Shown here in pieces: positions 41,828-60,306 of a stretch of 64,000 bases of DNA. The position numbers and the translations under genes are program-made. The notes beneath the pieces were generated by a model. That model had not been told where the DNA came from and did no database searches. It saw only the letters and a program-made list of their open reading frames with translations. Source of the DNA: an uncultured Actinomycetes bacterium (GTDB taxonomy: Bacteria > Actinomycetota > Thermoleophilia > RBG-16-64-13); contig CAMTXC010000006.1 of assembly GCA_947085635.1 (NCBI GenBank), positions 11,564-75,563 of the forward strand, written 5' to 3'. Every line of letters begins with the position of its first letter. Positions within the stretch are counted from its first letter, which is position 1.

Positions 41828-42514
41828 ATGAATAGGAACTACCTTGTCGCCATCATCGTGGCGGCCGTCGTCGTGGTCGGCCTCATCGTGGTGGTACCCA
41901 ACCTCGATGGCGGGAACACCGGCGGAACCAGCGGAACCACTCTTGGATCCGCGCCGCCCATCCCTGAGGACGCCACCATGCCCGAAGGTCATCCCGACTT
42001 GGGGGAAGGCTCAGATGCGACCGGGACGGAAGCCTCCCTCGAGGCCCTCGTGGCCGAAGCCGAGGCCGCATATGAGGCCGACAAGACCGACCTGGTAGCA
42101 GTCCTGGCGCTCGGAGACGCGTATCTTCAGGCGAACCGAGTCGACGATGCTACCCGCGTGCTGAACGAAGCATTGGCAATCGATGCAGGGAACGCCGAAG
42201 CCAAGGCCGGTCTGGCCATGGTCGACTTCGTGAACGGCGATACCGCGGCCGCGCAGAGCAAGCTCGAAGCCGTCATCGCTGAGTCCCCCGACTCGCAGAG
42301 GGCCTTGTACGATCTCGCCGTGGTCTACTTCTCGACGGATCAGCGCGACAAGGCGAAGGACACCTGGGCGAAGGTGGTCGAGGTCAACCCGCTCAGCGAG
42401 CTGGGCGAGATGGCCAAGCAGTTCATCGATCTCATGGGTCAAACGGAGACCTCGGGCGGCAGCCCGCACGGCGCCGATGGGTCAACGGGGACCACGGCTA
42501 CCACGAGCCAGTGA
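41828..42514 (+). CDS. Membrane-anchored TPR-repeat protein (CcmI/NrfG-like TPR module?)
   Basis: N-terminal TM helix, acidic linker, three or four TPR-like repeats. Confidence 0.65.
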   Translation: MNRNYLVAIIVAAVVVVGLIVVVPNLDGGNTGGTSGTTLGSAPPIPEDATMPEGHPDLGEGSDATGTEASLEALVAEAEAAYEADKTDLVAVLALGDAYLQANRVDDATRVLNEALAIDAGNAEAKAGLAMVDFVNGDTAAAQSKLEAVIAESPDSQRALYDLAVVYFSTDQRDKAKDTWAKVVEVNPLSELGEMAKQFIDLMGQTETSGGSPHGADGSTGTTATTSQ

Positions 42515-43477: not shown

Positions 43478-43547
43478 GGGTTGGCCCCTCCGCAGACTCA
43501 CCGACTTGCGCATAAAATAGGAGAAACCGACTTCAGGAGTGGTCTCG

Positions 43548-44693
43548 ATGGTCTTCGGCATGATTTCACGGATCCGGCTACGCGCCGTCCTCTACATCGC
43601 GGTGCTCGTGACGACCTCGCTGATCCTGGCCGCATTCGTCGCAGCCCAGCCGGTCGCAGCCGAGGAGCACACGACCACGTCGACCACGTCCGGCACGACC
43701 GACGAAACGACCTCGGTCACGACGGGCGGTACGACCAGCGAGACGACCACAGCCGTGGTCGCTCGACCCGGCGTCACCCCTGCCCCAGAGGGCTACGAAC
43801 CGGTGAACCCCGGCTTGGTGGCCGCGCAGATGGGGGTGCAGATCTGGCCGGAGTACGACACCAAGGACGTGCTGGTGCTTCTCGACGTCACCCTGCCGGC
43901 TACCACCGTGTTCCCCTACTCCTTCAGCTTCTACGTGCCGAAGGGGGCGAGGCTCGCCGGCTTGGCGGAGATCACCGAGGCCGGCGGCTTCGACTACACG
44001 CTCGGCGTCCCCGTCCAGGTCCCCGGCGAGGTGATGGACCTCGTCACCGTCACGGTGCCCAAGCGCCCGGTGCTTCGACTTGAGTACTACTACGATCCAG
44101 GCGTCGGCGTTCCGGGTCAGAAGTCGTTCCCGATCCTCTTCCAGGCTCCCGCCGACGTGGGTTCACTGTCCTTCGGCGTGCAGCAACCATCGGACGCTAC
44201 GGGTTTCTCGACTGAACCGGCCTTGCCCCAGACGTCCACCGACTCTGAAGGCTTCACCTACTTCTTCACGAACTTCTCCGCCATCAAGGCGGGCGAGATG
44301 GTCGAGGTGCAGGTTTCATACACCAAGACCAGTGCCGATCCATCGTTCTCTTCCGGTTCGACCGGCGGCGATCCGGTACAGGCGACGAACAGCAACCTAC
44401 TGTTGCTGATGCTTGCTGCCATCGTTCTCGTTATCGGGGGGATGGTCGCGTATCGTCTGTTGGGCCGCCGTGAGCCTGCGCCCGCCGGCAGGGGCGCCGC
44501 TTCGCGGGCGGGTGGAAGTGCGGCCGGTCGGCCGGGTTCGCGATCCGATAGTCGATCGAAATCGCGCGCCTCCGGCGGTCAGGGCTCGAGTGAGGACGCG
44601 GGCGGGCCCGCACGGTTCTGCACGCAATGCGGAGGCCGCCTGCAGAAGAAAGATCGTTTCTGTCCGGCCTGCGGGCACCCGCGGGAATCTTGA
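43548..44693 (+). CDS. Secreted-domain / single-TM / cytoplasmic zinc-ribbon protein, paralog 1
   Basis: Signal peptide, Thr-rich linker, IWPEYD...YYYD...SY.K domain, TM helix, C-terminal FCTQCG..RFCPACG. Confidence 0.7.
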   Translation: MVFGMISRIRLRAVLYIAVLVTTSLILAAFVAAQPVAAEEHTTTSTTSGTTDETTSVTTGGTTSETTTAVVARPGVTPAPEGYEPVNPGLVAAQMGVQIWPEYDTKDVLVLLDVTLPATTVFPYSFSFYVPKGARLAGLAEITEAGGFDYTLGVPVQVPGEVMDLVTVTVPKRPVLRLEYYYDPGVGVPGQKSFPILFQAPADVGSLSFGVQQPSDATGFSTEPALPQTSTDSEGFTYFFTNFSAIKAGEMVEVQVSYTKTSADPSFSSGSTGGDPVQATNSNLLLLMLAAIVLVIGGMVAYRLLGRREPAPAGRGAASRAGGSAAGRPGSRSDSRSKSRASGGQGSSEDAGGPARFCTQCGGRLQKKDRFCPACGHPRES

Positions 44694-44760: not shown

Positions 44761-44800
44761 TACTATGAGACGTAGTTGATTCCTACTACACTGCGTAGTA
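44761..44800. promoter_or_regulatory. Two adjacent operator-like repeats: TACTAT-N5-GTAGTT and TACTAC-N5-GTAGTA
   Basis: Positions 44761-44777 and 44784-44800, about 100 nt upstream of paralog 2. Confidence 0.5.
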
Positions 44801-44900
44801 TGATGCCGCAGAAGTAAGCGCCGGCGTTCACAAGCTTGGTGGTTGGCGGATCCATATGCCGGCGTACGGACCGTATACCAGCGGCACGAGGGGATCTAGC

Positions 44901-45857
44901 ATGAGTAGTTCTGGCGGAAGACGGTATGTGAGGGCGGCGCTTGTGGTACTGACCTCCTTGGCGTTGGTGCTCCTGCTCAGTCCGGCAGCGTTGGCCGCCG
45001 GGATGTCGGCTTCATCGATGAAGGTATCGATTTGGCCCGAGTATGACGACCCCCGCGTGTTGGTGATATACCAGGCGGAACTCGATGAATCGGTGCAGCT
45101 TCCCGTGGACGTGACGTTCAATGTGCCGAAGGGAGCCGAAGTCGCGATGGCGTGCGAGGTCGACCCATCGGACGGACATTCCTGCAAGCCTTTCGAACTC
45201 GTCGACCAAGGCGACTATCAGAGCCTCACCTACAAGGTGGAGACCCAGCGGAAGGTCTTCTTCGAGTACTACTACGATGCCTTCCCGGTCGGGCAGACGC
45301 TGCGCGAGTTCGATGTGCCTCTTCGCCTCACCTTTCCGGTGACCGAGCTGACCGTCGAGGTGCAGGAACCCGCACGATCGAGCGGGTTCGTTCTGAACCC
45401 CGACTTCCCCCGGCAGACGCAGGATTCCAAGGGGATCACGTACCATCTCCAGACAATCGCGTCTCCCGCTCTTGATGAGCCTGTGACGGTTGGTATCTCG
45501 TACAGCAAGCAGGACTCCGATCCGTCGGTGGCGCCTTCGTCTGATGGTTCCGCACCGACCCCGGCCGCCGCCGGTGGAAGCGTTGGTTTTTCCAACGGTA
45601 AGACCTTCGCCTTCCTCGTGGTGATCGTGGGTATCGGCGCGCTCGGCCTGGGGGGCTACAGTGTGCTCCGGCCCCGCCCAGCGGTGGCCCGGAGCCGAGC
45701 TGCGACCCCGAATAGGAGAACCTCGAGGCCGGTGCGCGAGGTCCAAGGCGGCGACGTCAGGTCGGCTCGTGGGCAAGGCAAGTTCTGCACTCATTGCGGC
45801 GAGAAGATAGGTGGGCGCGACCGCTTCTGCCCCGACTGTGGCAACGAGCAAGGCTGA
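44901..45857 (+). CDS. Secreted-domain / single-TM / cytoplasmic zinc-ribbon protein, paralog 2
   Basis: Same architecture and shared motifs (IWPEYDD, FEYYYD, ISYSK, FCTHCG..RFCPDCG). ATG 44901 follows GAGGGGA. The ORF-track start is 44856. Confidence 0.7.
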   Translation: MSSSGGRRYVRAALVVLTSLALVLLLSPAALAAGMSASSMKVSIWPEYDDPRVLVIYQAELDESVQLPVDVTFNVPKGAEVAMACEVDPSDGHSCKPFELVDQGDYQSLTYKVETQRKVFFEYYYDAFPVGQTLREFDVPLRLTFPVTELTVEVQEPARSSGFVLNPDFPRQTQDSKGITYHLQTIASPALDEPVTVGISYSKQDSDPSVAPSSDGSAPTPAAAGGSVGFSNGKTFAFLVVIVGIGALGLGGYSVLRPRPAVARSRAATPNRRTSRPVREVQGGDVRSARGQGKFCTHCGEKIGGRDRFCPDCGNEQG

Positions 45858-45893: not shown

Positions 45894-46478
45894 ATGAAGA
45901 TGCGCCCCCTGATTACCGCTTTAGTGCTTGCCGTGGTGGGCGCTTTGGCCGTGTGGTCCTTCTGGGCCAACGTGCTGGACCCGCACCCCGCGGGTGCCCC
46001 GAGCGCTGCGGCGCCTAGCTCCGCGCCCCCGAGCTCGGCGCCCCCCGCGGAGAGCTCGCCGCTGCCGCCGGCGCTCGCCGGCCTGCTTCTCGTAGCCGAG
46101 TTGAGCGGAGAGCAGGGCCTCGCCTCCGTTGAGCAGCTTCACGGCAAGGCGCTCGGCAAGGGCTTGGACGCGGCGTGGGTGGGTGAGTACGAGAGCCAAC
46201 AAGGTCGTGCCACCCTGTGGGTGAGTAGGTCTGTGCGTGAGATAGACGCAGAGGACCTGCTGGTACGCATGACCGATCGAATCATGGAGGGAGGCTCACC
46301 TTTTTCCCAGCCGGTGCCGATTGAAATGCAGGGCGTGCCGGCATACCGGCTGGAAGGTATGGGCCAGGTGCACTACTACTTTCGGTCGGACGGCTACGTC
46401 TATTGGCTGGGAATCGACGCCCCGTTGGCCGAGGGCGGCCTCGGCGAGTTGGTCGCCGCTGCCAAGGCGGTGAAGTGA
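45894..46478 (+). CDS. Hypothetical membrane-anchored/secreted protein
   Basis: N-terminal TM or signal sequence, Pro/Ser/Ala linker, globular domain. No family recognised. Confidence 0.55.
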   Translation: MKMRPLITALVLAVVGALAVWSFWANVLDPHPAGAPSAAAPSSAPPSSAPPAESSPLPPALAGLLLVAELSGEQGLASVEQLHGKALGKGLDAAWVGEYESQQGRATLWVSRSVREIDAEDLLVRMTDRIMEGGSPFSQPVPIEMQGVPAYRLEGMGQVHYYFRSDGYVYWLGIDAPLAEGGLGELVAAAKAVK

Positions 46479-46543: not shown

Positions 46544-47005
46544 GTGACGGAATCGAATGCGGCGCCCGTGGCGGTGGGCGGTTCGAGGCGCAGGTGGAAG
46601 ATGATCGCGGGCGCGGTCGTGCTCGCGCTTGCCGCGGGCTGGTTGTTGCTCTACGTGACGGTGGGAGGCGACTTCTACATGACCGTGGGCGAACTCGAGG
46701 AAGCCGGCGACGCCGCCAACGTGCGAGTGGGCGGGCAGGTTGTGCCGGATAGCGTCACCCAAATGGGAGATACGGCTACCTTCACGATACGGGATGATTC
46801 GGGCGCTGCTCTCGACGTGATCTACACCGGAGCCTTCCCCGAGCGTTTGCGGTCGTACGAATACGTCGTGGCCACGGGTTCTGTGCAGCCCGGCGGTCCC
46901 TTCGAGGCTGTGGAGGTTCTGGTAAAATGCCCCGACAAGCTCTTTGCTGAGAAACTCACCAATGGCGTCCTCGGTGGAGTGGGTCTCGAAAGGGTCCTCT
47001 ATTGA
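46544..47005 (+). CDS. ccmE: CcmE heme chaperone paralog 1 (Cys variant, KCPDKLF)
   Basis: N-terminal TM helix, OB-fold-like core (VRVGGQV...). Cys sits at the position of the heme-binding His. Confidence 0.75.
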   Translation: MTESNAAPVAVGGSRRRWKMIAGAVVLALAAGWLLLYVTVGGDFYMTVGELEEAGDAANVRVGGQVVPDSVTQMGDTATFTIRDDSGAALDVIYTGAFPERLRSYEYVVATGSVQPGGPFEAVEVLVKCPDKLFAEKLTNGVLGGVGLERVLY

Positions 47006-47081
47006 GCACTCCATCTCTCATTCCCGCTGTGCCTCACGAGATCACCGGCCGGTCGTTGTCGTTCCCGGAAGGGGTAGTCGC

Positions 47082-47504
47082 ATGGAGTCAAAGAAGCTGA
47101 AGTTTCTGGTGGGCGGTGTTGTGATCATAGGAGCGATCGCTACGCTGGCCTTCTTCGCGGTCCGCGAGAACATGGTGTACTACTACACGGTCACGGAGAT
47201 GCTCGACAAGGGCCGGTCGGCGAACGTGCGCGTGGCGGGCGACTTGGTCAGCGGAACCCTTGTCAAGGGCGGAGTGGGCGAGCCCATCGAGTTCGAGATC
47301 TACGACAAGGAAGCCACGGAGAACACGCTGTTCATCAAGTACACGGGCGCTGTGCCCGACACGTTCGTGGACGATCCGAACCAGCCGGTGGAGGTCGTCG
47401 TAGAAGGGGACTATCTTTCGGACGGTACCTTCGCTGCAGACTTCCTCATGGCGAAGTGCCCGAGCAAGTACGAGAGTGCGGAGAGCGCGGCCGCGGGGAA
47501 GTAA
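47082..47504 (+). CDS. ccmE: CcmE heme chaperone paralog 2 (CxxxY variant, KCPSKY)
   Basis: N-terminal TM helix, VRVAGDLV core, C-P-S-K-Y motif. Confidence 0.8.
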   Translation: MESKKLKFLVGGVVIIGAIATLAFFAVRENMVYYYTVTEMLDKGRSANVRVAGDLVSGTLVKGGVGEPIEFEIYDKEATENTLFIKYTGAVPDTFVDDPNQPVEVVVEGDYLSDGTFAADFLMAKCPSKYESAESAAAGK

Positions 47505-47629
47505 CCGGTCGGACGGGTGCGCCTCGACCATGGGGGCGCATCGTATTCTCGGGACGATGGACAAGTGGAGTCGCTGGCTGACGCCGTCGTACGTCGACGG
47601 CACATGAAAGGCACGGAGGATCAACCTAT

Positions 47630-49633
47630 ATGAATCAGATCGGCTATTCGGCGCTGTTGCTGGCGGTTCTCACCTCGGCCTTCGGGTTGATCGCGCCGCT
47701 GGTCGCGGTGCGCACCGGGAGTCGGGGTTGGTTGAAGAGCGCCGAAAGGAGCGTGTACGGACTGTGCGCGGTCTCGTTGGTCGCGTCGGCCGCGCTCGTA
47801 TACGCGCTCATGACGCGTGACTACACGAACGAGTACGTCTATAACTACACGTCGAACGAGCTCTCGTGGTTCTACACCCTCTCGGCCTTCTGGGCCGGGA
47901 ACTCCGGTTCGATGCTGCTGTGGCTGGTGATTCTCGCCGTCTTCGCGGCTGTGGTCGTATGGCAGAACCAGGCCAAGAACAGGGAGATCCTGCCGTACGT
48001 GATCTCGATCCTGATGTCCATCGCACTCTTCTTCTCCCTCATGATGACGGCTTCCCGGGGGTCGAACCCCTTCGCGATGGTGCCTGCGGGCGTCTTCCCG
48101 GCCAACGGTTCGGGCCTGAACCCCATGCTGGAGAACCCGGGTATGGTGGCGCACCCCATCACCCTCTTCCTGGGCTATGTGGGCTTCGCGGTTCCATACG
48201 CCTTCGCGATGGCCGCTCTTATTACAAGGAGGCTCGGCGACTTCTGGATCCGCTCTACGCGACGCTGGACCGTCTTCGCCTGGATATTCCTTACGATCGG
48301 CAACATCGTGGGCGCGTGGTGGGCTTACGTGACGCTCGGCTGGGGCGGATACTGGGCGTGGGATCCCGTGGAGAACGCCTCCTTCATGCCGTGGGTCACC
48401 GGCACAGCCTTCCTTCACTCTGTGATGATCCAGGAGAAGAAGGACATGCTGAAGGTGTGGAACATCGTGCTCATAGTGCTCACCTTCTCGCTGACCATCT
48501 TCGGCACGTTCCTCGTCAGGTCAGGCGTCGTAAGCTCGGTTCACAGCTTCGGCCAGAGCAGCCTGGGTTTCTTCTTCCTGGGCTTCCTGGGGCTGATTCT
48601 CGTGTTCTCGCTGAACCTGCTGTTTAGCCGCCTCGACATGCTCAAATCTCGCAACGAGTTGGATAGTTTCGTGTCGCGTGAATCGAGCTTCCTGCTCAAC
48701 AACCTGCTCCTAGTGGGCATAGCGATGACCGTGCTTTGGGGCGTGCTCTTCCCGATCATCAGCGAAGCCGTCACCGGCAACAAGGTGACGGTGGGCCCTC
48801 CGTTCTTCGATCAGGTGATCGCGCCCATCGGCTTGGTTCTCATGTTCGTTACCGGCATATGCCCCCTGATCGCCTGGCGCCGCGCAACCTTGGCCAACCT
48901 CCGCAAGAACCTCATGGTCCCCGGTGTCACGGCGATCGTGGTCCTGGTGGCCCTCATCGCGACAGGGATGCGCCACACGTACGCGATCATCAGCTTCACT
49001 CTCTGCGCCTTCGTGGTTACCACCGTGCTCATGGAGTTCGCCCGCGGTGCGTGGGTGCGGCGGGAGATGTCGGGGGAGAACCTCGCCAAGGCGCTCGTGT
49101 CGCTCACGTGGCGCAACAAACGGCGTTACGGCGGCTACATCGTGCACATCGGGGTCATCTTGTTTCTTTTCGGAGTCACCGGCTCGTATGCGTTCAAACA
49201 GCAGGAATCGCGCACGATCACCAAGGGTGAGTCCATCTCGGTGGGAGGGTACGAGGTTACTTACGATAGCTTCGACTCGTACGACACCACCGAGAAGCGT
49301 GTGGGTACCGTCACGTTCACGGTGGCCGAGAACGGGCGGTTCCTTGGGACAGTGGCTCCGCGCAAGGAGTATTACTTCGCGAAGGATCAGCCGTGGACGC
49401 GGATCGACCGCAACGTCACTCTGACGCGCGACGTGTACGTGTCCCTACTCGACTACTCGGCCGAGACCGGCGAGGCCAACGTCGAGGTTCGCATCAATCC
49501 TCTGGTGAGCTGGTTGTGGATCGGGGGGATCGTGATGGTGCTTGGCGGTATTGTCGCCATTTGGCCTGACAAGCGCGACGCCCAACGTCTGGCGGCTCGC
49601 TATGAAAGACAAGTGAGGCTCCATGAGATCTAA
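47630..49633 (+). CDS. ccmF: Cytochrome c-type biogenesis protein CcmF (heme lyase)
   Basis: WGGYWAWDPVEN WWD motif and about 15 TM helices. Confidence 0.9.
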   Translation: MNQIGYSALLLAVLTSAFGLIAPLVAVRTGSRGWLKSAERSVYGLCAVSLVASAALVYALMTRDYTNEYVYNYTSNELSWFYTLSAFWAGNSGSMLLWLVILAVFAAVVVWQNQAKNREILPYVISILMSIALFFSLMMTASRGSNPFAMVPAGVFPANGSGLNPMLENPGMVAHPITLFLGYVGFAVPYAFAMAALITRRLGDFWIRSTRRWTVFAWIFLTIGNIVGAWWAYVTLGWGGYWAWDPVENASFMPWVTGTAFLHSVMIQEKKDMLKVWNIVLIVLTFSLTIFGTFLVRSGVVSSVHSFGQSSLGFFFLGFLGLILVFSLNLLFSRLDMLKSRNELDSFVSRESSFLLNNLLLVGIAMTVLWGVLFPIISEAVTGNKVTVGPPFFDQVIAPIGLVLMFVTGICPLIAWRRATLANLRKNLMVPGVTAIVVLVALIATGMRHTYAIISFTLCAFVVTTVLMEFARGAWVRREMSGENLAKALVSLTWRNKRRYGGYIVHIGVILFLFGVTGSYAFKQQESRTITKGESISVGGYEVTYDSFDSYDTTEKRVGTVTFTVAENGRFLGTVAPRKEYYFAKDQPWTRIDRNVTLTRDVYVSLLDYSAETGEANVEVRINPLVSWLWIGGIVMVLGGIVAIWPDKRDAQRLAARYERQVRLHEI

Positions 49634-50192
49634 CATGCATGCCGGGCGCCGAATGGTTCGCGCCACAGCCAAGGTGGCTACTGCCAAGGTAGCCGCACGG
49701 CCGGCGTTCGCCCGGCTCACAGCGCTGCTGGGGGCCGTAGTCATCGCCGTCGCCGCGTTACTGTTCATCGCAGCGCCCGCCTTTGCAGTACCGCCGGTAT
49801 CGAGTGTGGCCGACCAGCTCATCTGCCAGTGTGGGTGCGCCGCGGTGCTCACTGATTGCCCACACCAGGAGTGCGGCTGGGGTATCCCGGCCAAGCAGTA
49901 CATCGGCCAGCAGCTGGAGGCCGGCCGGTCGCCGGAGGCCCTCGTGCAATACTACGTGGAGGAATACGGCGAACAGGTGCTCGCCGCTCCCACGAAGCGG
50001 GGCTTCAACATGGTGGCGTGGGTGGCACCCTTCGCCGCGCTCATCATCGGAGCCGTGGCCGTGTACTTCCTAATCGGTATGTGGGCGCGGCGTAACGGCT
50101 CAGATGTGGAGGAGGTGCCGTTTCGTGAGGTCGGCCTCGCTCCTGAAGATCTGGAACGCAGGCTCGATAATGAGCTGCGGGAGTTCGATTGA
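49623..50192 (+). CDS. ccmH: CcmH/NrfF-like protein, Cys-rich variant
   Basis: Signal peptide, LICQCGCAAVLTDCPHQEC, C-terminal TM helix. Overlaps the end of ccmF. Confidence 0.65.
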   Translation: MRSNMHAGRRMVRATAKVATAKVAARPAFARLTALLGAVVIAVAALLFIAAPAFAVPPVSSVADQLICQCGCAAVLTDCPHQECGWGIPAKQYIGQQLEAGRSPEALVQYYVEEYGEQVLAAPTKRGFNMVAWVAPFAALIIGAVAVYFLIGMWARRNGSDVEEVPFREVGLAPEDLERRLDNELREFD

Positions 50193-50253
50193 GCGGCGGC
50201 CTGTGTGTCCGGTGCGTTAGGCGGGTCGCGTCGATTGTCGGCAGCGCGAAGGA

Positions 50254-50874
50254 GTGATGCTGAAGGTGTTCGAGATGCTGATTCAGGTGATACTGGCTTT
50301 GTCGGTCGTGGCCTTCATCGGCTACCCGCTCCTCAGGGCCGCGCAGACGGGCGAGGCCGAAGCACAGCCACTCTCCGAGGAGTTGGAGGACCTTCTCAGC
50401 AAGAAGGAGTCCACGTACTCCGCTTTGAAGGAACTCGAGTTCGATTTCAAGATGGGCAAGCTGTCCGAGAAAGACTACGTGGAGATCGACGCGCGCTATC
50501 GCGATGATGCCCTGGAGATACTCGGGGCGATTGAGGAGGCGGAGAAGGGATCACCCTCAGATGGTTCTGGCGCCCCTCGCCGCACCAAGAAAGCCCGACC
50601 ACAGGTGGAAAGCCGCCCACCGACGATCGCGAGGCCGAAGCCCGCGAAGGCGACCACCATCGGAAAGACGGCAGCGACTGTCACCTGCGCCGACTGCGGT
50701 CGCGAGAACCCGCCGGGTTCCCGCTTCTGCGCCTCGTGTGGTGTGGATCTCGAGGAGGCTTCGGCGAATGCAGACGCGGGCGGCTCCGACGAGCTCGTCT
50801 GCGACGAGTGCGGGCGTGACGTGGCAGCCGATCACCGGTTCTGCGCCGGCTGTGGCGCGGAGGTGGAGGCCTGA
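50254..50874 (+). CDS. CcmI-like N-terminal TM segment fused to a coiled-coil region and a double zinc ribbon
   Basis: ILALSVVAFIGYPLLR resembles the CcmI N-terminus. The C-terminus has CADCG..RFCASCG and CDECG..RFCAGCG. Confidence 0.6.
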   Translation: MMLKVFEMLIQVILALSVVAFIGYPLLRAAQTGEAEAQPLSEELEDLLSKKESTYSALKELEFDFKMGKLSEKDYVEIDARYRDDALEILGAIEEAEKGSPSDGSGAPRRTKKARPQVESRPPTIARPKPAKATTIGKTAATVTCADCGRENPPGSRFCASCGVDLEEASANADAGGSDELVCDECGRDVAADHRFCAGCGAEVEA

Positions 50875-50942
50875 GATCACCGGTCGTCGAGGAGACGGGT
50901 GGGGACCGGGCCATCCTGGGCGGCACGTCCGGGGGCCGGGAC

Positions 50943-51662
50943 TTGGCCATTCGCGTGAAGGGTCTGTGGAAGTACTTCGATCACTTCCCGGCGATCCGCG
51001 GGCTCGACGTGGAGTTGGAGCTCGGGCGGTTCCTCACGGTGTTCGGACCCAACGGGGCCGGCAAGACCACCCTCATCAAGGTGCTCTCCACCCAGATCGG
51101 GCCGTCGCAGGGCCAGGTCGAGGTGGGGGGGTGCGTGCTTCCCGGTCAGGCGGACCGCCTGCGCCGGCGTGTGGGAGTGATCTCGCACAACACCTACCTC
51201 TACCCGAACTTGACGGCGCGGGAGAACCTGACGTTCTTCGGGCGCATGTACCGGGTGCCCGATCTCGAGGAACGCATCAAGATGCTCCTGGAAGAGGTCG
51301 GCCTGAGCGGCCGCCGCGACGACCTCGTGCGCACCTACTCGAGGGGCATGCAACAGCGGCTCTCCATCGCGAGGGCGCTTCTGCACGACCCCGATATCAT
51401 GTTCCTCGATGAGCCCTACACGGGGCTCGACCAGCATGCCTCGAGGATGTTGCGCGACGTTCTGAAGACGCTCCATACCGGCGAACGCACACTCGTGATG
51501 ACTACCCACAACATCGAGCAGGGTCTCGAGATGTGCGACGAGGTGGCCATCCAGGTGCGGGGGCGCCTTGTCTTCAGAGAGAACGTGGCCGCCATCGACA
51601 GGGCGGCCTTCGAACAGACCTATTTCGATCACGTGGGCAAGGACTTCCGTTGGGATTCCTGA
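50943..51662 (+). CDS. ccmA: Heme exporter ABC ATPase CcmA
   Basis: Walker A (GPNGAGKT), signature YSRGMQQR, Walker B (MFLDEP). Start is uncertain (TTG 50943 or GTG 50955). Confidence 0.85.
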   Translation: MAIRVKGLWKYFDHFPAIRGLDVELELGRFLTVFGPNGAGKTTLIKVLSTQIGPSQGQVEVGGCVLPGQADRLRRRVGVISHNTYLYPNLTARENLTFFGRMYRVPDLEERIKMLLEEVGLSGRRDDLVRTYSRGMQQRLSIARALLHDPDIMFLDEPYTGLDQHASRMLRDVLKTLHTGERTLVMTTHNIEQGLEMCDEVAIQVRGRLVFRENVAAIDRAAFEQTYFDHVGKDFRWDS

Positions 51663-52327
51663 GCCAAGCCTGGATCATCGCCCGCAAGGACATCATCGGG
51701 GAGCTCCGCACTCGGGAGACGATCCTCTCCATGCTGCTCTTCGGCTTCCTGGTGATCCTGATCTTCAACTTCGGCATCGAGCCGGGGCTGCGGGAAGAGA
51801 ACCTCGTGAAACCCGGTGTGCTCTGGGCGGCGTTCACCTTTGCCGGCATCCTCGGCCTCAACCGAAGCTTCATAGCCGAGAAAGAGAACGACTGCCTGCA
51901 GGGCCTGCTGCTCTGCCCGGTGGACCGCTCAGTCATCTACCTCGGCAAGTTCTTCGGGAACTTCATCTTCACCCTGAGCATGGGCCTGGTGGTGTTCCTG
52001 TTTTTCTCGGTGCTTTACAACGTGAACCTGGCGCAGGTGGCACTGCCTCTAGGCGCCATCCTCGTGCTCGCGACCATCGGCTTCGCCGCGGTCGGCACGC
52101 TATTCGCGGCGGTATCGGTGGGCCTGAAGACGCGCGACGTGATCCTCTCGATCCTCCTCTTCCCGGTGATGGTGCCCGTGGTGCTCGCCGCCGCGAAGTC
52201 GTCGGGGCGGGTGCTCGACGGCGTTCCGCTGGCCGGCGCCGGTCTGTGGCTCGCCTTGCTGGTGGTCTATGATGTGATATTCCTGACGGTGTCCATCATG
52301 CTGTTCGACTATGCGGTGGAAGAATGA
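51650..52327 (+). CDS. ccmB: Heme exporter membrane protein CcmB
   Basis: Six TM helices with CcmB-like motifs (FNFG, LLCPV). TTG start overlaps the end of ccmA. Confidence 0.8.
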   Translation: MGFLSQAWIIARKDIIGELRTRETILSMLLFGFLVILIFNFGIEPGLREENLVKPGVLWAAFTFAGILGLNRSFIAEKENDCLQGLLLCPVDRSVIYLGKFFGNFIFTLSMGLVVFLFFSVLYNVNLAQVALPLGAILVLATIGFAAVGTLFAAVSVGLKTRDVILSILLFPVMVPVVLAAAKSSGRVLDGVPLAGAGLWLALLVVYDVIFLTVSIMLFDYAVEE

Positions 52328-53124
52328 TGACGACCGTGTCTGGAGGGATTACCGTGGAGCACGACACGCAGGCGGCCGTCGCGGGTGGAGGATCCTCCGG
52401 CGGCGGTGTGACCACTGCAACGACCCCCCCTCTGCCTGACTCGGGGCGCACCCTCTGGTTCGACATCCTGGGCGTGGCGGCCATTGTCTCGGTGCTCGTG
52501 GCGCTCTACGGCGCCATCGTCTGGGCCCCTACCGAGGCGGTCATGGGCCACGTGCAGCGCATCTTCTACTTCCACATGCCGAGCGCCTGGGTGGCGTTGG
52601 GGCCCGCGTTCACCATCGTCTTCATCTGCAGCATCGTGTACCTCGTGAAGAAAGACCTGCGCTACGACCGGATAGCGGGGGCTTCCGCGGAGCTGGGAGT
52701 GCTCTTCACCACGATCACTCTTCTCACCGGACCCCTGTGGGCCAAGCCCATTTGGGGCGCCTACTGGACCTGGGATCCGCGTCTCACCACCACGCTGGTC
52801 CTGTGGTTCATCTACGTGGCCTACCTCATGCTCCGGTCCTCTATCACCGAGGGACACAGGCGCGCCCGACTCTCGGCTGTGTTCGGCATCGTCGGGTGGA
52901 TCGACGTGCCGATCGTCTTCATGTCGATCCGGTGGTGGCGAACGATCCACCCCACCTTGGTCACCGGGGAAGGCATGAACCTCGACAGCTCGATGCAGGC
53001 CGTGCTCCTATTCTCCCTAGGCGCCATCACTCTCCTGTATGTGTTCCTTCTCGTCGTGCGGGTCCGTCAGCTTGACATGGGCTCGCGCATCGATCGTCTT
53101 CGTCAACAATTCCACCTGCGCTAG
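52324..53124 (+). CDS. ccmC: Heme exporter protein CcmC
   Basis: WGAYWTWDPRL WWD motif. ATGA overlap with ccmB. Confidence 0.9.
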   Translation: MMTTVSGGITVEHDTQAAVAGGGSSGGGVTTATTPPLPDSGRTLWFDILGVAAIVSVLVALYGAIVWAPTEAVMGHVQRIFYFHMPSAWVALGPAFTIVFICSIVYLVKKDLRYDRIAGASAELGVLFTTITLLTGPLWAKPIWGAYWTWDPRLTTTLVLWFIYVAYLMLRSSITEGHRRARLSAVFGIVGWIDVPIVFMSIRWWRTIHPTLVTGEGMNLDSSMQAVLLFSLGAITLLYVFLLVVRVRQLDMGSRIDRLRQQFHLR

Positions 53125-53135
53125 GAGTCTTCTGC

Positions 53136-53279
53136 ATGAGTGAGCTAGGTTTCCTGTTCGCCGGTTACGCCGTGGTGTGGGTCGCTCTCGGAGGGTACAT
53201 GCTCGCTGTCGGCCGTCGCCAGTCCACGCTGCGGCGTGAGATCGCCCGGCTCGAACAGGAGTTCAACAGCGGGGAGTGA
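53136..53279 (+). CDS. ccmD: CcmD-family small membrane protein (47 aa)
   Basis: Below the ORF-track cutoff. TAGGAG Shine-Dalgarno site, a single TM helix (FAGYAVVWVALGGYML), then a basic and coiled tail. Confidence 0.65.
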   Translation: MSELGFLFAGYAVVWVALGGYMLAVGRRQSTLRREIARLEQEFNSGE

Positions 53280-53348: not shown

Positions 53349-53365
53349 TACTACGACTGGTAGTA
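53349..53365. promoter_or_regulatory. Operator-like inverted repeat TACTAC-N5-GTAGTA (putative autoregulatory site)
   Basis: Perfect 6-5-6 inverted repeat 33 nt upstream of the BlaI-like gene. Confidence 0.55.
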
Positions 53366-53397: not shown

Positions 53398-53835
53398 ATG
53401 GACGGAGCGGTGAATCTCAACACGGGTCAAGAAGGTCTGCGTCAGGTACTCGGCGAGCTCGAGGCCGAGATCATGGAGCGCATGTGGGATCGCGGCTCTT
53501 CGTCGGTGCGCGATATCTACGAATGTCTCGCCGAGAGGCGTGAGATCGCATACACCACGGTCATGACGGTGATGGGCAGGCTGGCCGACAAGGGCCTGCT
53601 CAGCCGCAGGCAGCAGGGCCGGGCCTATCTGTACAGCCCATCGGAGACGCGTGGTTCGTTCTGCGCCGGAGTCGTGCGGAGTGTGGTGGAGGGTCTCTTC
53701 GGGGGCGCGAACCGCCCCGTGCTCGCCCACTTCGTGGAGCAGCTGTCGGAGGAGGACGGAGCCGATCTCGACATGCTTGCCGCCATCATCGATGAGAAGC
53801 GCCGGGAGCGGCGATCATCGACACCTTTGGCCTGA
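53398..53835 (+). CDS. BlaI/MecI/CopY-family winged-helix transcriptional repressor
   Basis: E.EIM..W, Y.TV.T...RL..KG motifs. ATG follows GGGGAGGAAGG. Confidence 0.85.
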   Translation: MDGAVNLNTGQEGLRQVLGELEAEIMERMWDRGSSSVRDIYECLAERREIAYTTVMTVMGRLADKGLLSRRQQGRAYLYSPSETRGSFCAGVVRSVVEGLFGGANRPVLAHFVEQLSEEDGADLDMLAAIIDEKRRERRSSTPLA

Positions 53836-53870: not shown

Positions 53871-54896
53871 TTGGTCCGCCGCTTTCTCGAGGGACGCGCG
53901 CGGCCGCGCACGCTGGCCTACACCTACCTCGCCACTCTTCTCGCCGCCGCGGGCGCTACGCTCGCCCTGCTCGTATCCCTCTTGCTGCGCTATCTGCCGC
54001 ACGGCCTGCTCACTCGGGCGGGACTGGCGTGCGACATGGAAGTAGCCTGTGCGTCGCCCCTACCGCCCTGGGCGGGCTCCACATTCTCCTTCCTCATCGG
54101 CGGAGTGATCGTGGGGCTTGTGCTGTTCGCCGGGGTCGCGATATATGGGCAGACTAGTTGCTCCACGCGTAGACGACTCGACGTGGTGAGTTCGGCGATG
54201 GAGTTCCCCTGTGCGGTCCCGTCGGGCCTGCGCGGGCGGGTGTACCTCGTCGACGACCCCGCGCCCGTCTCCTACACCATCGGCTTCTGGCGTCCTCAAG
54301 TCATCGTATCTTCGGGTCTCCTTGCCACCCTCGACGAGGACGAGCTCCGTGCGGCCCTCGCGCACGAGGAGGGCCACGTGGTCGCGGGTGACAACCTCAT
54401 GGTGCTCGTGGCGCGCACGCTTGCCCTGACCTTCGCTCTGGTGCCCGGCGTCGGCATGGCCTACGCCCGGTTGCGCAAGGCGCAGGAGCGGGCGGCCGAC
54501 GAGTTCGCCCGCGATCGCACCGGCGACGGCCTTCTGGTGGCCGCCAGTCTCACGAAGTTCGCACGTTCACTGCTCGCGCCGGCGCCTTCCCGGCGGGTCG
54601 AGATCGCGACCACGTCTTTCGCCGAAGAGGGAGATGTGAGCGAACGTGTCCGCGGCCTCCTCTCCAACAGCCGTGTCGCCACCTCGAAGCGCCGACTGGC
54701 AGCGGTAGCCCTCGCTTTCGTGGTGCTCGTGGCCACGTTCTCCGGCAGCGCCCTGGCGTTCACCGGCGTCACGTTGGCCTCTCGGTCCGACTGCTCGACG
54801 TGTCATGAGCTGCGGGTGGTGTCGGCCGGCGCTGCCACGATGCACGAGAACCCGAGCCTGCACGCGGAGTGCGTGGATACCTTCGTTCAGCACTGA
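53871..54896 (+). CDS. BlaR1-like M56/M48 zinc metalloprotease sensor with C-terminal CxxCH motif
   Basis: HEEGH motif, multiple TM helices, final TM helix followed by SDCSTCHE. Start is uncertain because the upstream in-frame sequence looks like another TM helix but has no canonical start codon. Confidence 0.75.
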   Translation: MVRRFLEGRARPRTLAYTYLATLLAAAGATLALLVSLLLRYLPHGLLTRAGLACDMEVACASPLPPWAGSTFSFLIGGVIVGLVLFAGVAIYGQTSCSTRRRLDVVSSAMEFPCAVPSGLRGRVYLVDDPAPVSYTIGFWRPQVIVSSGLLATLDEDELRAALAHEEGHVVAGDNLMVLVARTLALTFALVPGVGMAYARLRKAQERAADEFARDRTGDGLLVAASLTKFARSLLAPAPSRRVEIATTSFAEEGDVSERVRGLLSNSRVATSKRRLAAVALAFVVLVATFSGSALAFTGVTLASRSDCSTCHELRVVSAGAATMHENPSLHAECVDTFVQH

Positions 54897-55041: not shown

Positions 55042-55674
55042 GTGTCGAAGAAACAGACGGCCCGGAAGGGCGATCTGAAGGCAAAGCGGGAGCGTTTCGA
55101 AGAGGCCGGGAAGTTCCCCGTGGGGAAGCTGATCGCGGTGAGTGTCATCGTGCTCGGGCTCGCGTTCGGCGGCTTCGCGGCGTACCAGTACTTCGTGGCA
55201 CCGCAGGCGGTGGGCGGCGCGACCGTGGACTCCGGCGTCTCGTATCCGGCGGGTCAGGTGCCCATGGTGCCGCTCGACGCGCAGCAGACCGCCGAAGGCC
55301 TTTCCTTCCCGGTGCAGGGTCTGAAGGACAACCTCATCGTGGGGCTCACGTACGAGCGCTCGCAACCCATGCCGGCCGGATACCAAGCCGCGACGGGTGG
55401 AAGCAGCCTGCCGCTTCTCAGCTACATCTCCCCGAAGGGGAACCTGGTGGTGGCGACTTCGTTCTGCGAACCGTGCCGCGGTGACAGCTTCCACATCGAC
55501 GGCAACGCCTTGGTGTGCGACGTCTGTTTCACTCGTTGGGACCTCGACACGCTTGAAGGCCTGTCGGGCGGGTGCATGGCGTATCCTCCTGAAGAAGTGG
55601 CCGCGGAACTAGTAGGCGACACCGTGTTCATCCCCAAAGCCGATCTCGAGGCGTGGGTGCCGAGGGCATTCTAG
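55042..55674 (+). CDS. DUF2318-like membrane-anchored Cys4 protein (FetA/Cj1660-like)
   Basis: N-terminal TM helix. C-terminal CEPC...CDVC...GGC pattern. Confidence 0.65.
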   Translation: MSKKQTARKGDLKAKRERFEEAGKFPVGKLIAVSVIVLGLAFGGFAAYQYFVAPQAVGGATVDSGVSYPAGQVPMVPLDAQQTAEGLSFPVQGLKDNLIVGLTYERSQPMPAGYQAATGGSSLPLLSYISPKGNLVVATSFCEPCRGDSFHIDGNALVCDVCFTRWDLDTLEGLSGGCMAYPPEEVAAELVGDTVFIPKADLEAWVPRAF

Positions 55675-56891: not shown

Positions 56892-56895
56892 CGTC

Positions 56896-59045: not shown

Positions 59046-59587
59046 TGAGAAGACCGACCTCGCGCGTGGCCCTGGTGGCCGCGTTCGCTCTGCTGCTGGG
59101 ACTCATAGGGGTCCTCGGGTGCGGTGGGCAGGCGGTCACGAGTGGATCAGGCGTGGCCGCGGCGCCCGACTCGACCGATTCCCGCAAGCCGGCCCCCGCC
59201 TTCAGCGGCGTTACGATGGACGGCGCCGAGGTGTCTCTGGCCACGTTCGAAGGAAAGCCGCTCGCGCTCATCTTCTGGGCCACCTGGTGACCTTCTTGCA
59301 GGGCGGAGACGCCCGAACTCGATAGGTTCTATCGAGAGAACAAAGACGACATCGGGTTCCTCGTTATCGCGATCCAGGACGCTGAAGCCGATGTGCGGGC
59401 CTTCATGCAACAGGGCGGATACGACCTCCCCGTGCTCCTCGACCCGCCGGGCGCTATCGCCAACGCCTACCGGGTATCGGCGGTGCCTACGGCCGTCTTC
59501 ATCGATCCGGAGGGTAATATCGCGAGCATCAAGGTGGGTCAGACCACGGCCGCTCAACTCGAGGAGATCACCTCGGCGTTGCGATGA
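59045..59587 (+). CDS. TlpA/ResA-like thiol:disulfide oxidoreductase lipoprotein with selenocysteine (FWATW-U-PS-C) at TGA 59288-59290
   Basis: The ORF track splits it into 58784..59290 and 59393..59587, which are in the same frame. LGC lipobox. Any repeat ATG from 58955 to 59045 could be the start. Confidence 0.8.
59293..59317 (+). other. SECIS-like hairpin (upper stem GGGCG-GAGA-CGCCC at 59301-59314)
   Basis: The upper stem starts 10 nt after the UGA. A lower 3-bp stem forms across a 5-nt internal loop. Confidence 0.4.
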
Positions 59588-60306
59588 GCATCGAGCAGCT
59601 GAACCTGGCAGCCTTCGGACTAGCTCTGGTGGCCGGCGCCGCCAGCTTCCTCAGCCCGTGCGTTCTGCCCCTTCTGCCCGGCTATCTCTCGTTCGTGTCG
59701 GGGGTGTCGCTGGATCGCCTGCACGTGGACACCCGGCGCGTCTTCTTCGCCACCCTGGCCTTCGTGGCGGGGTTCTCGCTCGTGTTCACTCTCGCGGGAG
59801 CGGGCGCGGGGTTCGTGGGCGACATCCTGCTGGCGCACAGACGGACGCTGCAGATCGCATCCGGTGTGATGCTGGTGCTGCTGGGGGTGCTGGTCTCTGG
59901 CCTGCTCCCCCTGAGCGCGTTCCAGCGCGAGCGCCGGTTGTTGCCCTACCGAGTGCCCGGAGGATTGGTGGGGGCGGGGTTGGCGGGCGTGGCCTTCTCT
60001 ATCGGGTGGACGCCATGCGTCGGGCCCATCCTTGCCTCGATCCTGACTCTGGCCGCTTCAGGCCGGAGCCCCCTCGGCGGCGCAGCGCTGCTCGCGACCT
60101 ACTCGCTGGGGCTCGCCGTGCCGTTCGTGTTCTCCGGGCTGTTCTTCGCCCGAGCCATGGGCGCCTTCTCCTGGGTCAAACGTCACTTCGGCGTGATCAA
60201 GATGGCCTCGGGCGTCCTGCTCGTGGCCTACGGTCTGCTCATGATCGGCGGTCAGTTCACCTGGCTCACCGCACGGCTCGCGGGCTACCAGCTGTTCGAG
60301 TTCTAG
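59584..60306 (+). CDS. ccdA: CcdA/DsbD-family cytochrome c biogenesis thiol-reductant transporter
   Basis: FLSPCVLPLLPGY and TPCVGPIL motifs. ATGA overlap with the TlpA-like gene. Confidence 0.9.
   Translation: MSIEQLNLAAFGLALVAGAASFLSPCVLPLLPGYLSFVSGVSLDRLHVDTRRVFFATLAFVAGFSLVFTLAGAGAGFVGDILLAHRRTLQIASGVMLVLLGVLVSGLLPLSAFQRERRLLPYRVPGGLVGAGLAGVAFSIGWTPCVGPILASILTLAASGRSPLGGAALLATYSLGLAVPFVFSGLFFARAMGAFSWVKRHFGVIKMASGVLLVAYGLLMIGGQFTWLTARLAGYQLFEF

What the first reader, a model, noticed from the sequence alone, without database searches (positions are those of the whole stretch)
46544..53279. Complete System I (Ccm) pathway with two tandem Cys-variant CcmE chaperones
ccmE-ccmE-ccmF-ccmH-(ccmI-like)-ccmA-ccmB-ccmC-ccmD form one co-directional block. 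Both CcmE paralogs replace the heme-binding His of the HxxxY motif with Cys. Paralog 2 has the CxxxY variant (KCPSKY), which has been described for archaea and some sulfate reducers. Paralog 1 has KCPDKLF and lacks the Tyr at +4. System I with duplicated Cys-type CcmE is unusual in a genome whose other markers look Gram-positive or actinobacterial, since that group usually uses System II.
Basis: partly seen in the sequence, partly recalled or inferred. Interest (0 to 1): 0.6.

Follow-up and report, generated by a model that had tools for sequence, protein, structure and literature searches.

The report
Two-chaperone cytochrome c maturation operon
An uncultured actinobacterium (Thermoleophilia) has a working-looking operon for attaching haem to cytochromes that carries two different, old, cysteine-type CcmE haem chaperones plus several unstudied helper genes. 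The cysteine type and this haem system are ordinary in the phylum, but I found no paper describing the conserved two-chaperone layout.

Summary
The gene block is real: ccmE1-ccmE2-ccmF-ccmH-like-(CcmI-N-like zinc-ribbon gene)-ccmABCD, with KCPDKLF in CcmE1 and KCPSKY in CcmE2.

- CcmE occurs in 173 of 401 sampled Actinomycetota genomes.
- Every actinobacterial CcmE tail I read is Cys-type.
- This genome also has two System II sets.

The pair is not a recent duplication.
- CcmE2 is the ortholog of the single CcmE of sister genera.
- CcmE1 belongs to a separate "long-tail" subfamily. Its 24-residue tail (CP..[YL][LF]PEK-x9-G[LIV]E..LY) keeps the same register in low-GC actinobacterial lineages.
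- There it again sits directly upstream of a KCPSKY CcmE, inside the same cassette: a ribophorin-like zinc-ribbon membrane protein, both CcmEs, CcmF, a CcmH with CxCGC instead of LRCxxC, the CcmI-N-like gene and CcmABCD.
- Sister genera that lack CcmE1 also lack the linked CcmH, the zinc-ribbon genes and BlaI/BlaR.
- CcmE1 is under purifying selection (dN/dS about 0.2).

Most likely both proteins carry haem and work together at the CcmF/CcmH lyase. This is inferred, not shown. I found no paper on it. The scan noted the same long-tail CcmE on another genome (e1-2875978). Verdict: new variant of a known kind, moderate interest.

The parts
41828..42514 (+). TPR protein, possible CcmI/CycH-type apocytochrome-binding module (uncertain member of the unit)
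   Evidence: Pfam TPR_19 5.1e-17. TPR_CcmH_CycH (PF23914) scores 36.5 bits, below its 42-bit cut-off. A one-mismatch operator lies just upstream at 41745.
43539..44693 (+). Paralog of the up333 membrane protein (signal/anchor, beta-domain, TM helix, C-terminal zinc ribbon); lacks the conserved Cys pair
   Evidence: 28% identical to up333 in alignment A4. Zn_Ribbon_1 2.4e-5. Conserved upstream of the cassette in relatives.
44784..44800 (+). Palindrome TACTAC-N5-GTAGTA overlapping a promoter-like site; probable BlaI operator and start of the ccm transcription unit
   Evidence: Exact match. Nine matches in the window at up to 2 mismatches against 0.16 expected by chance. Promoter-like site at 44776-44804.
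44856..45857 (+). up333: extracytoplasmic beta-sandwich protein with a conserved Cys pair (ACEV..GHxCK), one TM helix and a cytoplasmic zinc ribbon. It is the constant upstream neighbour of long-tail CcmE.
   Evidence: Found upstream of long-tail CcmE in L064, L068, L069, L071, L080, L082, L084, L086 and in the family's tandem loci. AF2 pLDDT is above 90 for residues 52-218. Best Foldseek matches are ribophorin I/Ost1 and the M1-aminopeptidase N-domain.
45894..46478 (+). up194: membrane-anchored extracytoplasmic protein of unknown fold with conserved LHGK and GMGQxHYYF motifs
   Evidence: No Pfam or NCBIfam hit. Conserved directly upstream of ccmE1 in all tandem loci of the family except L034 (G025), and in L063/L064 and L087.
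46544..47005 (+). ccmE1: long-tail Cys-type CcmE (C129; tail CPDKLFAEK...GLERVLY-COOH)
   Evidence: PF03100 8.7e-18. PDB CcmE match 3.7e-13. AF2 gives a TM helix at 14-39, a barrel at 57-127 and a disordered tail. Foldseek top hit is 8ce8_E. In 15 homologs C129, P130, D131, K132, L133, F134, E136, K137, L148, E149, L152 and Y153 are invariant. dN/dS 0.19-0.31.
47082..47504 (+). ccmE2: standard Cys-type (KCPSKY) CcmE, ortholog of the single CcmE of sister genera
   Evidence: PF03100 2.9e-20. Forms a clade with the family's single-type CcmE at 99/94*. dN/dS 0.09-0.23.
47630..49633 (+). ccmF haem lyase
   Evidence: CcmF_C 1.1e-63, Cytochrom_C_asm 4.9e-37. The WGGYWAWDP motif and the four conserved His contexts (AHPI, FLHS, SVHSF, YIVHIG) can be read in the translation.
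49623..50192 (+). ccmH-family gene with C-x-C-G-C...C-P-H-x-x-C in place of LRCxxC
   Evidence: PF03918 6.1e-14. The Cys pattern is conserved in 9 relatives and in L064.
50254..50874 (+). CcmI-N-terminal-like membrane protein with two cytoplasmic zinc ribbons
   Evidence: DZR 2.3e-11. TIGR03142 hit in 9 of 12 family members, best 1e-5, below cut-off. Ribbon-less versions follow ccmF in other Thermoleophilia families.
50943..51662 (+). ccmA ABC ATPase
   Evidence: ABC_tran 1e-30. TIGR01189 ccmA 5.1e-35, below its cut-off.
51650..52327 (+). ccmB
   Evidence: PF03379 5.7e-30. TTG start overlaps the ccmA stop.
52324..53124 (+). ccmC
   Evidence: TIGR01191 2.6e-43. WGAYWTWDPR motif, FYFHMP and WWRTIHP are present in the translation.
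53136..53279 (+). ccmD (alternative family)
   Evidence: TIGR04391 5.3e-13, above its cut-off.
53349..53365 (+). Second exact TACTAC-N5-GTAGTA palindrome, upstream of blaI
53398..53835 (+). BlaI-type repressor
   Evidence: Penicillinase_R 2.5e-29. Syntenic with the tandem-type ccm cassette in the 10 relatives' loci whose fetched DNA reaches that far, and upstream of it in L063/L064.
53871..54896 (+). BlaR1-like M56/M48 membrane protease with a C-terminal CSTCH tail
   Evidence: Peptidase_M48 3e-12, Peptidase_M56 1.7e-8. CxxCH lies at residue 308 and is variable in other genera.
59584..60306 (+). CcdA/DsbD-type thiol-reductant transporter (nearby, not in the operon)
   Evidence: DsbD_TM 7.9e-18.

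Best explanation
This is the normal cytochrome c maturation System I operon of one clade of anaerobic Actinomycetota, in a conserved 'two-CcmE' form.

Proposed mechanism:
- CcmABCD loads haem onto the tail cysteine of membrane-anchored CcmE.
- CcmE2 (KCPSKY) is the universal carrier, orthologous to the single CcmE of sister genera.
- CcmE1 is a second, non-redundant carrier of a separate long-tail subfamily. It keeps the anchor, the barrel and the Cys, and adds a conserved 24-residue tail that ends in Tyr.
- Most likely the two act together as a hetero-oligomer or a short relay. They would hand haem to the lyase formed by CcmF, the unusual CxCGC CcmH and the CcmI-N-like zinc-ribbon protein.
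- The ribophorin-like up333 protein would handle the unfolded apocytochrome.
- The unit is probably transcribed from a BlaI-controlled promoter in front of up333.

Shown: gene identities, conservation, co-occurrence, co-loss and purifying selection.

Inferred: haem binding by both cysteines, their joint action, and the roles of the accessory proteins.
For: Family assignments.

CcmE1 is a real CcmE: PDB profile match 3.7e-13, an AF2 model with TM helix, OB barrel and flexible tail, and Foldseek top hit 8ce8_E. Its Cys and tail are invariant in 15 homologs. dN/dS is about 0.2.

Twelve genomes in six genera of the family have the same order: up333/up194-E1-E2-F-H-DZR-ABCD-BlaI-BlaR.

The same cassette, with a long-tail CcmE directly before a KCPSKY CcmE, occurs in low-GC (40-56%) actinobacterial lineages: L063-L072, L080, L082, L084-L086.

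The tails share one register: C0, P1, E7, K8, G18, [LIV]19, E20, L23, Y24.

The CcmF tree joins the cassettes. Tandem and single types of the family form one clade (99*), which is sister to the low-GC cassettes (95*). The single type sits on a long branch, which fits secondary loss.

All 11 single-type loci that I fetched lack CcmH, the zinc-ribbon gene, up333 and BlaI/BlaR next to ccm. This is co-loss with CcmE1.

The E. coli Ccm(ABCD)2 complex is modelled with two CcmE copies (PMC10457321).

Fused two-barrel Cys-type CcmE proteins exist elsewhere.

The operator palindrome lies in front of up333 and blaI.
Against: There is no biochemical evidence for haem on either protein or for an E1-E2 contact.

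Sister genera manage with one CcmE, so CcmE1 is not needed for basic maturation.

Most members of this family's CcmE1 clade have lost the +4 Tyr, which is the axial haem ligand in E. coli CcmE.

The barrel-only phylogeny does not resolve whether CcmE1 and the low-GC long-tail proteins are orthologs. The careful tree gives a polytomy, and the AU test rejects neither E1+LT (p 0.24) nor E1+E2.

G147 has up194 and a CcmH but a single CcmE, so the accessory genes do not strictly require CcmE1.

The genome is only 75% complete.
Confidence: 0.6

Rival explanations
1. Substrate-specialised chaperone. CcmE1 and CcmE2 each carry haem independently to the same CcmF, but for different client motifs or clients. 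Examples are CX4CH sites versus CXXCH sites, or the short CxxCH tail of the BlaR-like protease. This would resemble dedicated lyase paralogs such as NrfEFG.
For: The genome encodes a giant cytochrome with 33 CxxCH and 11 CxxxxCH motifs. BlaR tails vary among CxxCH, xxxCH and CX4CH. CcmE1 keeps its own anchor and Cys, so it could work alone.
Against: There is only one CcmF in the cassette. No client gene travels with the cassette in L080 or L082. Single-CcmE relatives were not compared for CX4CH content, so no correlation has been shown.
Confidence: 0.2
2. Haem-status sensor or buffer. CcmE1 holds haem and reports supply to the BlaR/BlaI switch, or stores haem, and does not feed the lyase.
For: BlaI/BlaR are syntenic with the two-CcmE cassette in this family and in L063/L064. 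Operator sites flank the unit.
Against: L080 and L082 have the two CcmEs and the accessory genes but no adjacent BlaI/BlaR. CcmE1 always lies between up333/up194 and ccmE2-ccmF, a position typical of a core component.
Confidence: 0.1
3. Decaying or redundant duplicate. CcmE1 is a relaxed copy with no role of its own.
For: It evolves about twice as fast as CcmE2. It lacks Tyr+4. It is split by a frameshift in G009.
Against: dN/dS is about 0.2. Thirty-seven columns are invariant across homologs down to 42% identity. It is retained in at least three actinobacterial families and in many metagenome contigs. In G009 ccmF is split too, which points to assembly errors.
Confidence: 0.05

Closest known systems
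Variant System I (System I*) with CxxxY CcmE: Desulfovibrio desulfuricans/vulgaris (PDB 2KCT) and archaea such as Methanosarcina acetivorans (C120; PMC9084895)
   Same: Cys replaces the haem-binding His. CcmE2 has the exact CPSKY-type motif. CcmABC(D), CcmE and CcmF are present. The hosts are anaerobes rich in multihaem cytochromes.
   Different: System I* was defined as lacking CcmH and has one CcmE. This cassette has a CcmH-family gene (without LRCxxC), a CcmI-N-like zinc-ribbon protein, up333/up194 and a second, long-tail CcmE.
Canonical E. coli CcmE (H130xxxY134; PDB 1SR3, 8CE8)
   Same: N-terminal anchor, OB barrel and flexible C-terminal haem-binding tail. The long-tail motif CPENYLPEK of the low-GC relatives resembles E. 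coli HDENYTPPE.
   Different: Cys instead of His. In this window's CcmE1, Tyr+4 is Leu and the protein ends in a conserved ...GLERxLY. There are two CcmE genes rather than one.
Canonical CcmH and CcmI (E. coli CcmH fusion; Rhodobacter CcmH plus CcmI)
   Same: A Pfam CcmH domain with a C-terminal TM helix. The zinc-ribbon protein has the TM-plus-cytoplasmic-helix part of CcmI. A separate TPR protein lies nearby.
   Different: The LRCxxC redox motif is replaced by CxCGC...CPHxxC. No TPR domain is fused. Two cytoplasmic zinc ribbons are added.
Two-barrel (fused) Cys-type CcmE of Coriobacteriia, and tail-less CcmE partners in other phyla
   Same: A second CcmE-fold module accompanies a Cys-type CcmE.
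   Different: In those cases the second module has no haem-binding Cys or tail. Here the extra protein keeps the Cys and has a longer conserved tail and its own anchor.

Membership tests
CcmE (PF03100), applied to CcmE1 | N-terminal membrane anchor followed by an OB-fold barrel | tested here: met
   Pfam 8.7e-18. AF2 helix 14-39 and barrel 57-127. Foldseek top hit 8ce8_E; 1sr3, 1j6q and 2kct are also hit. PDB profile 3.7e-13.
CcmE (PF03100), applied to CcmE1 | Haem-attachment residue (His or Cys) directly after the last barrel strand | tested here: met
   C129 aligns with E. coli H130 and is invariant in 15 homologs.
CcmE (PF03100), applied to CcmE1 | Tyr four residues after the attachment residue ([HC]xxxY) | tested here: not met
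   The position is Leu133, invariant in the 15-sequence family. Tyr is kept in G025 and in all low-GC long-tail relatives. A conserved Tyr is the last residue (+24).
CcmE (PF03100), applied to CcmE1 and CcmE2 | Covalent haem binding and transfer to apocytochrome | not testable with these tools
   Needs haem staining of the expressed proteins.
CcmE, Cys-type (CxxxY), applied to CcmE2 | CPSKY-type motif, anchor, barrel, position next to ccmF | tested here: met
   KCPSKYES. Pfam 2.9e-20. Clade with the single CcmE of sister genera.
System I* (Allen et al. 2006 definition, as cited in PMC9084895) | CxxxY CcmE together with absence of CcmH | tested here: not met
   A CcmH-family gene follows ccmF (PF03918, 6.1e-14). 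The single-CcmE operons of sister genera do fit this definition.
CcmH (PF03918) | Domain match above the curated cut-off | tested here: met
   51.9 bits against a cut-off of 25.
CcmH (PF03918) | LRCxxC thiol-redox motif | tested here: not met
   The sequence is L-I-C-Q-C-G-C...C-P-H-Q-E-C. The CxCGC pattern is conserved in relatives and in L064.
CcmI (TIGR03142 plus TPR) | N-terminal TM/cytoplasmic-loop domain above cut-off, and a periplasmic TPR domain | tested here: inconclusive
   12-14 bits against a cut-off of 29.3 for the window's protein. Nine of 12 relatives hit it, best 1e-5. The protein has no TPR. A separate TPR protein at 41828-42514 scores 36.5 against 42 for PF23914.
Complete canonical System I (CcmABCDEFGHI) | CcmG thioredoxin in the system | tested here: inconclusive
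   None in the operon. CcdA lies at 59584-60306, and there is a weak AhpC/TSA-like hit at 58784-59290.

The most novel reading that the evidence does not exclude
Cys-type CcmE systems may work as two-barrel units. In this reading CcmE1 and CcmE2 form a heterodimer that holds one haem between them, for example one Cys-vinyl bond plus the terminal Tyr of the long tail as iron ligand, or one bond to each vinyl. The non-canonical five-Cys CcmH would resolve this intermediate at CcmF. That would be a haem hand-off chemistry different from the E. coli His130/Tyr134 model. It would also explain why fused or tail-less second CcmE modules recur beside Cys-type CcmE in several phyla.
Probability: 0.15. 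Interest if true: 0.75.

Novelty: new variant of a known kind. Interest (0 to 1): 0.5.

Why it matters
System I is the textbook model for haem trafficking, and it is understood almost entirely from proteobacteria with one His-type CcmE.

This cassette shows that a large group of uncultured, cytochrome-rich Gram-positive anaerobes uses a different parts list:
- two distinct Cys-type chaperones;
- a CcmH without its redox motif;
- a CcmI remnant with zinc ribbons;
- a ribophorin-like membrane protein;
- a BlaR/BlaI-type switch.

The long-tail CcmE offers a direct experiment on what the CcmE tail and its Tyr ligand do. It could also explain how Cys-type CcmE releases haem to the lyase.

The result also corrects the assumption that Actinomycetota rely on System II.

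Tried and rejected
1. Quick CcmE tree. It put CcmE1 next to the long-tail proteins with support 80. A constrained search then found a better tree, and the careful tree collapsed the backbone. AU tests rejected none of E1+LT, E1+E2 or E2+LT-partner. I therefore do not use the barrel tree to argue orthology. I rely on the tail register, the synteny and the CcmF tree.

2. Recent lineage-specific duplication: rejected. The E1 and E2 clades each span the family's genera, and E2 groups with the single-type CcmE.

3. 'CcmE1 is a non-CcmE OB-fold protein': rejected.

4. Literature. Searches for CcmE with CXXXY, Thermoleophilia, Actinobacteria plus System I, two ccmE / ccmE1 / ccmE2 / paralog, and Desulfovibrio plus OB-fold found no description of tandem ccmE genes or a long-tail CcmE. 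The only 'two copies of CcmE' hit concerns the stoichiometry of the E. coli complex.

5. Naming the low-GC lineages. Cluster look-ups gave only the label 'Actinobacteria/Actinomycetes bacterium' for L080. No finer taxonomy could be obtained.

6. up194. It had no hit in Pfam or NCBIfam, and I did not model its structure.

7. up333. The fold search gave only generic beta-sandwich matches (ribophorin I, M1 aminopeptidase N-domain) and no chemistry.

8. System II in relatives.
Full report
**Observation**

ORF listing and profile searches confirm a co-directional block.

- ccmE1, 46544-47005: PF03100, 8.7e-18.
- ccmE2, ATG at 47082 to 47504: PF03100, 2.9e-20.
- ccmF, 47630-49633.
- A CcmH-family gene, 49623-50192: PF03918, 6.1e-14.
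- A double zinc-ribbon protein, 50254-50874.
- ccmA, 50943-51662.
- ccmB, TTG at 51650 to 52327.
- ccmC, 52324-53124.
- ccmD, 53136-53279: TIGR04391, above its cut-off.

CcmC and CcmF carry their WWD motifs and conserved histidines (translation). CcmE1 ends ...LVKCPDKLFAEKLTNGVLGGVGLERVLY and CcmE2 ends ...MAKCPSKYESAESAAAGK. The two are 29% identical.

**Whose genome, and is System I unusual there?**

The window lies in a 2.09-Mb, 75%-complete MAG. Close homologs are labelled Thermoleophilia or Actinobacteria, and earlier notes of the scan say the same.

- CcmE was found in 43 of 61 genomes of the same class and in 173 of 401 genomes sampled across the phylum.
- CcmH-family genes were found in 122 of those 401.
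- All of the roughly 75 actinobacterial CcmE tails that I read are Cys-type: KCPSKY/F, and rarely KCSSKF.
- In a library of 1.84 billion representative proteins, nearly all of the 150 best matches to the CcmE1 profile carry KCPSKY-like motifs.

So the Cys type is a very large family, not a rarity of archaea and sulfate reducers.

The genome also has two ResB/CcsA (System II) sets. Each lies directly downstream of a giant multihaem cytochrome gene: C25:26116-31212 followed by ResB at 31883, and C4:9481-14568 followed by ResB at 14677.

**The pair is conserved and is not a fresh duplicate**

Within the family, the CcmE-bearing genomes fall into two operon types.

- The tandem type occurs in twelve genomes of six genera. 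Its order is up384/up333 - up194 - ccmE1 - ccmE2 - ccmF - ccmH-like - zinc-ribbon gene - ccmABCD - blaI - blaR.
- The single type occurs in fourteen genomes, eleven of which I fetched and examined. It is ccmE-ccmF-ccmABCD only, which matches the published CcmH-less variant.

In a careful tree CcmE2 groups with the single CcmE of the sister genera (99/94*), and CcmE1 forms its own clade (100/100*) on a long stem.

CcmE1 is under purifying selection, with dN/dS of 0.19-0.31 against 0.09-0.23 for CcmE2. Thirty-seven columns are invariant across 15 homologs down to 42% identity. They include C129, P130, D131, K132, L133, F134, E136, K137, L148, E149, L152 and the terminal Y153.

CcmE1 is a true CcmE.
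- The PDB profile search hits CcmE at 3.7e-13, with C129 aligned on E. coli H130.
- The AF2 model (pLDDT 71) shows a TM helix at 14-39, a barrel at 57-127 and a disordered tail.
- The best fold match is CcmE in the CcmABCDE complex 8ce8.

**A wider long-tail subfamily in the same cassette**

The profile search also found CcmE proteins that match CcmE1 through to its last residue. Their tails read CP[EDS]xY[LIM]PEK...G.[LIV]E..LYR.

Metagenome contigs and genomes that encode them have 40-56% GC. One is labelled as an actinobacterial MAG, and three lie in two other families of the phylum sample.

- In every such locus where the downstream DNA is held, the long-tail gene is followed directly by a KCPSKY CcmE.
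- It is preceded by an up333 homolog.
- Where the contig is long enough, it is followed by ccmF, a CcmH with the same CxCGC pattern, the zinc-ribbon gene and ccmAB(CD).
- blaI/blaR lie upstream in L063 and L064.

The tails of CcmE1 and these proteins share one register: C0, P1, E7, K8, G18, [LIV]19, E20, L23, Y24. This window's clade differs by Tyr+4 to Leu and Leu+5 to Phe. One relative in the same family (G025) keeps the Tyr.

The CcmF tree joins the family's tandem and single types (99*) and makes them sister to the low-GC cassettes (95*). The single type sits on a long branch. The simplest reading is an ancestral two-CcmE cassette that some genera later streamlined. Those genera lost ccmE1 together with the operon-linked ccmH, the zinc-ribbon gene, up333/up194 and the adjacent blaI/blaR.

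The barrel-only CcmE phylogeny cannot confirm that CcmE1 and the low-GC long-tail proteins are orthologs. Its backbone is a polytomy, and AU tests reject none of the alternatives. I rest that point on the tail register, the synteny and the CcmF tree. Independent duplication with convergent tails remains possible but unlikely.

**Accessory genes**

- The CcmH-family protein has C-x-C-G-C...C-P-H-x-x-C instead of LRCxxC. The pattern is conserved in relatives and in L064.
- The zinc-ribbon protein has a TM helix and an ELEFDxxxGKLSxxDY helical segment. This segment hits the CcmI N-terminal model weakly but consistently: 9 of 12 family members, best 1e-5. Ribbon-less versions follow ccmF in other Thermoleophilia families.
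- up333 has a confident beta-sandwich ectodomain (pLDDT above 90) that resembles ribophorin I/Ost1 and the M1-aminopeptidase N-domain. It also has a conserved Cys pair, one TM helix and a cytoplasmic zinc ribbon.
- up194 has no recognisable family.
- The palindrome TACTAC-N5-GTAGTA occurs exactly at 44784 (before up333, over a promoter-like site), at 53349 (before blaI) and at 54982, and with one mismatch at 41745. Nine matches at up to two mismatches compare with 0.16 expected by chance. This suggests BlaI control of the whole unit.

**Mechanism**

What is shown is identity, conservation, co-occurrence, co-loss and selection.

What I infer is this. CcmABCD loads haem onto the tail Cys of both anchored chaperones. 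CcmE2 is the general carrier. CcmE1 is a second haem-handling part tied to the CcmH, CcmI-like and up333 module, and it acts with CcmE2 at the CcmF lyase.

Indirect support comes from three points.
- The two genes are strictly adjacent.
- The E. coli Ccm(ABCD)2 complex is modelled with two CcmE copies (PMC10457321).
- A second CcmE-fold module recurs beside Cys-type CcmE elsewhere. I saw fused two-barrel proteins, and earlier scan notes describe others.

The rivals are client specialisation, a sensing or buffering role linked to BlaR/BlaI, and a decaying copy. For client specialisation, note that the genome has a cytochrome with 33 CxxCH and 11 CX4CH motifs. The decaying-copy reading is contradicted by the conservation data.

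**Comparison and novelty**

The closest known system is the CxxxY variant of System I in Desulfovibrio and archaea (PMC9084895). That variant was defined by a single CcmE and no CcmH, so this cassette fails that definition.

The canonical System I definition is not met either, because LRCxxC, a fused TPR domain and an operon-encoded CcmG are all missing.

My literature searches found no description of tandem ccmE genes or of a long-tail CcmE.

The scan has noted the same long-tail CcmE on another genome (e1-2875978). It has also noted two-barrel or tail-less partners in other lineages.

I rate this a new variant of a known kind, with moderate interest.

**Limits**

- The MAG is incomplete.
- The taxonomy of the low-GC lineages is unresolved.
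- No multimer modelling was possible.

Noticed in passing
window 35125-35637 (+), inside ORF 34804-35637: A second CcmH-family paralog scores 81.5 bits for PF03918, better than the operon copy. It has an SPCCW motif instead of LRCxxC and the same C-terminal ...LDEELSRFDS ending. It lies between the trxA/selenoprotein genes and the hydrogenase small subunit. Other Thermoleophilia families keep their CcmH unlinked from ccmEF.
   Followed up: partly
window 41745, 44784, 53349, 54982: The palindrome TACTAC-N5-GTAGTA occurs as 3 exact copies and 1 one-mismatch copy. There are 9 matches at up to 2 mismatches against 0.16 expected. The copies lie in front of the TPR gene, up333, blaI and the FtrD-like gene, which suggests a BlaI-type regulon covering the ccm unit.
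   Followed up: partly
window 53871-54896; L027-L035, L063/L064: The C-terminal tail of the BlaR-like protease carries CxxCH in this genus and in G009. It reads SPTCH/SPACH in G016/G030, CGSGH in G023 and CSNSSCH (CX4CH) in the low-GC cassette. Only the 'CH' is widely kept.
   Followed up: partly
window 55042-60306: Downstream of blaR lie an FtrD-like Fe-S membrane protein (PF10080), a MacB-type ABC transporter (two FtsX permeases and an ATPase), a weak thioredoxin/AhpC-like ORF and CcdA. An FtrD-like gene also sits just upstream of the cassette in L082.
   Followed up: no
G000 contigs C25:17878-21927, C25:26116-34017, C4:9481-16586: One giant cytochrome has 33 CxxCH and 11 CxxxxCH motifs. Two further giant multihaem genes are each followed directly by their own ResB/CcsA pair, which look like dedicated System II maturases.
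   Followed up: partly
L045-L050, L055, L056 (other Thermoleophilia families): A 92-158-residue TM protein with the same (E/D)(L/M)(D/E)(F/H)xxGK motif as the N-terminus of the zinc-ribbon protein directly follows ccmF. It looks like a minimal CcmI-N-like partner of CcmF.
   Followed up: partly
proteins P0018-P0036 and others (about 225 aa): Many database CcmE proteins have two OB barrels, with KCPSKYE after the first barrel and no motif after the second. Earlier scan notes place them in Coriobacteriia.
   Followed up: no
L030 (G009): Both ccmE1 and ccmF are split into two overlapping ORFs in this 10-contig genome. This is probably due to indel errors in the assembly rather than to pseudogenes.
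   Followed up: no
L087 (G147): This cassette variant has up384-like and up194-like genes but a single KCPSKY CcmE before ccmF. G147 also has a CcmH about 2 kb downstream on the same contig. The accessory genes can therefore occur without the long-tail CcmE.
   Followed up: no
L053/L054 (G042): One complete 3.4-Mb genome of the class has two nearly identical CcmE genes at distant loci. Only one of them is next to ccmF.
   Followed up: no
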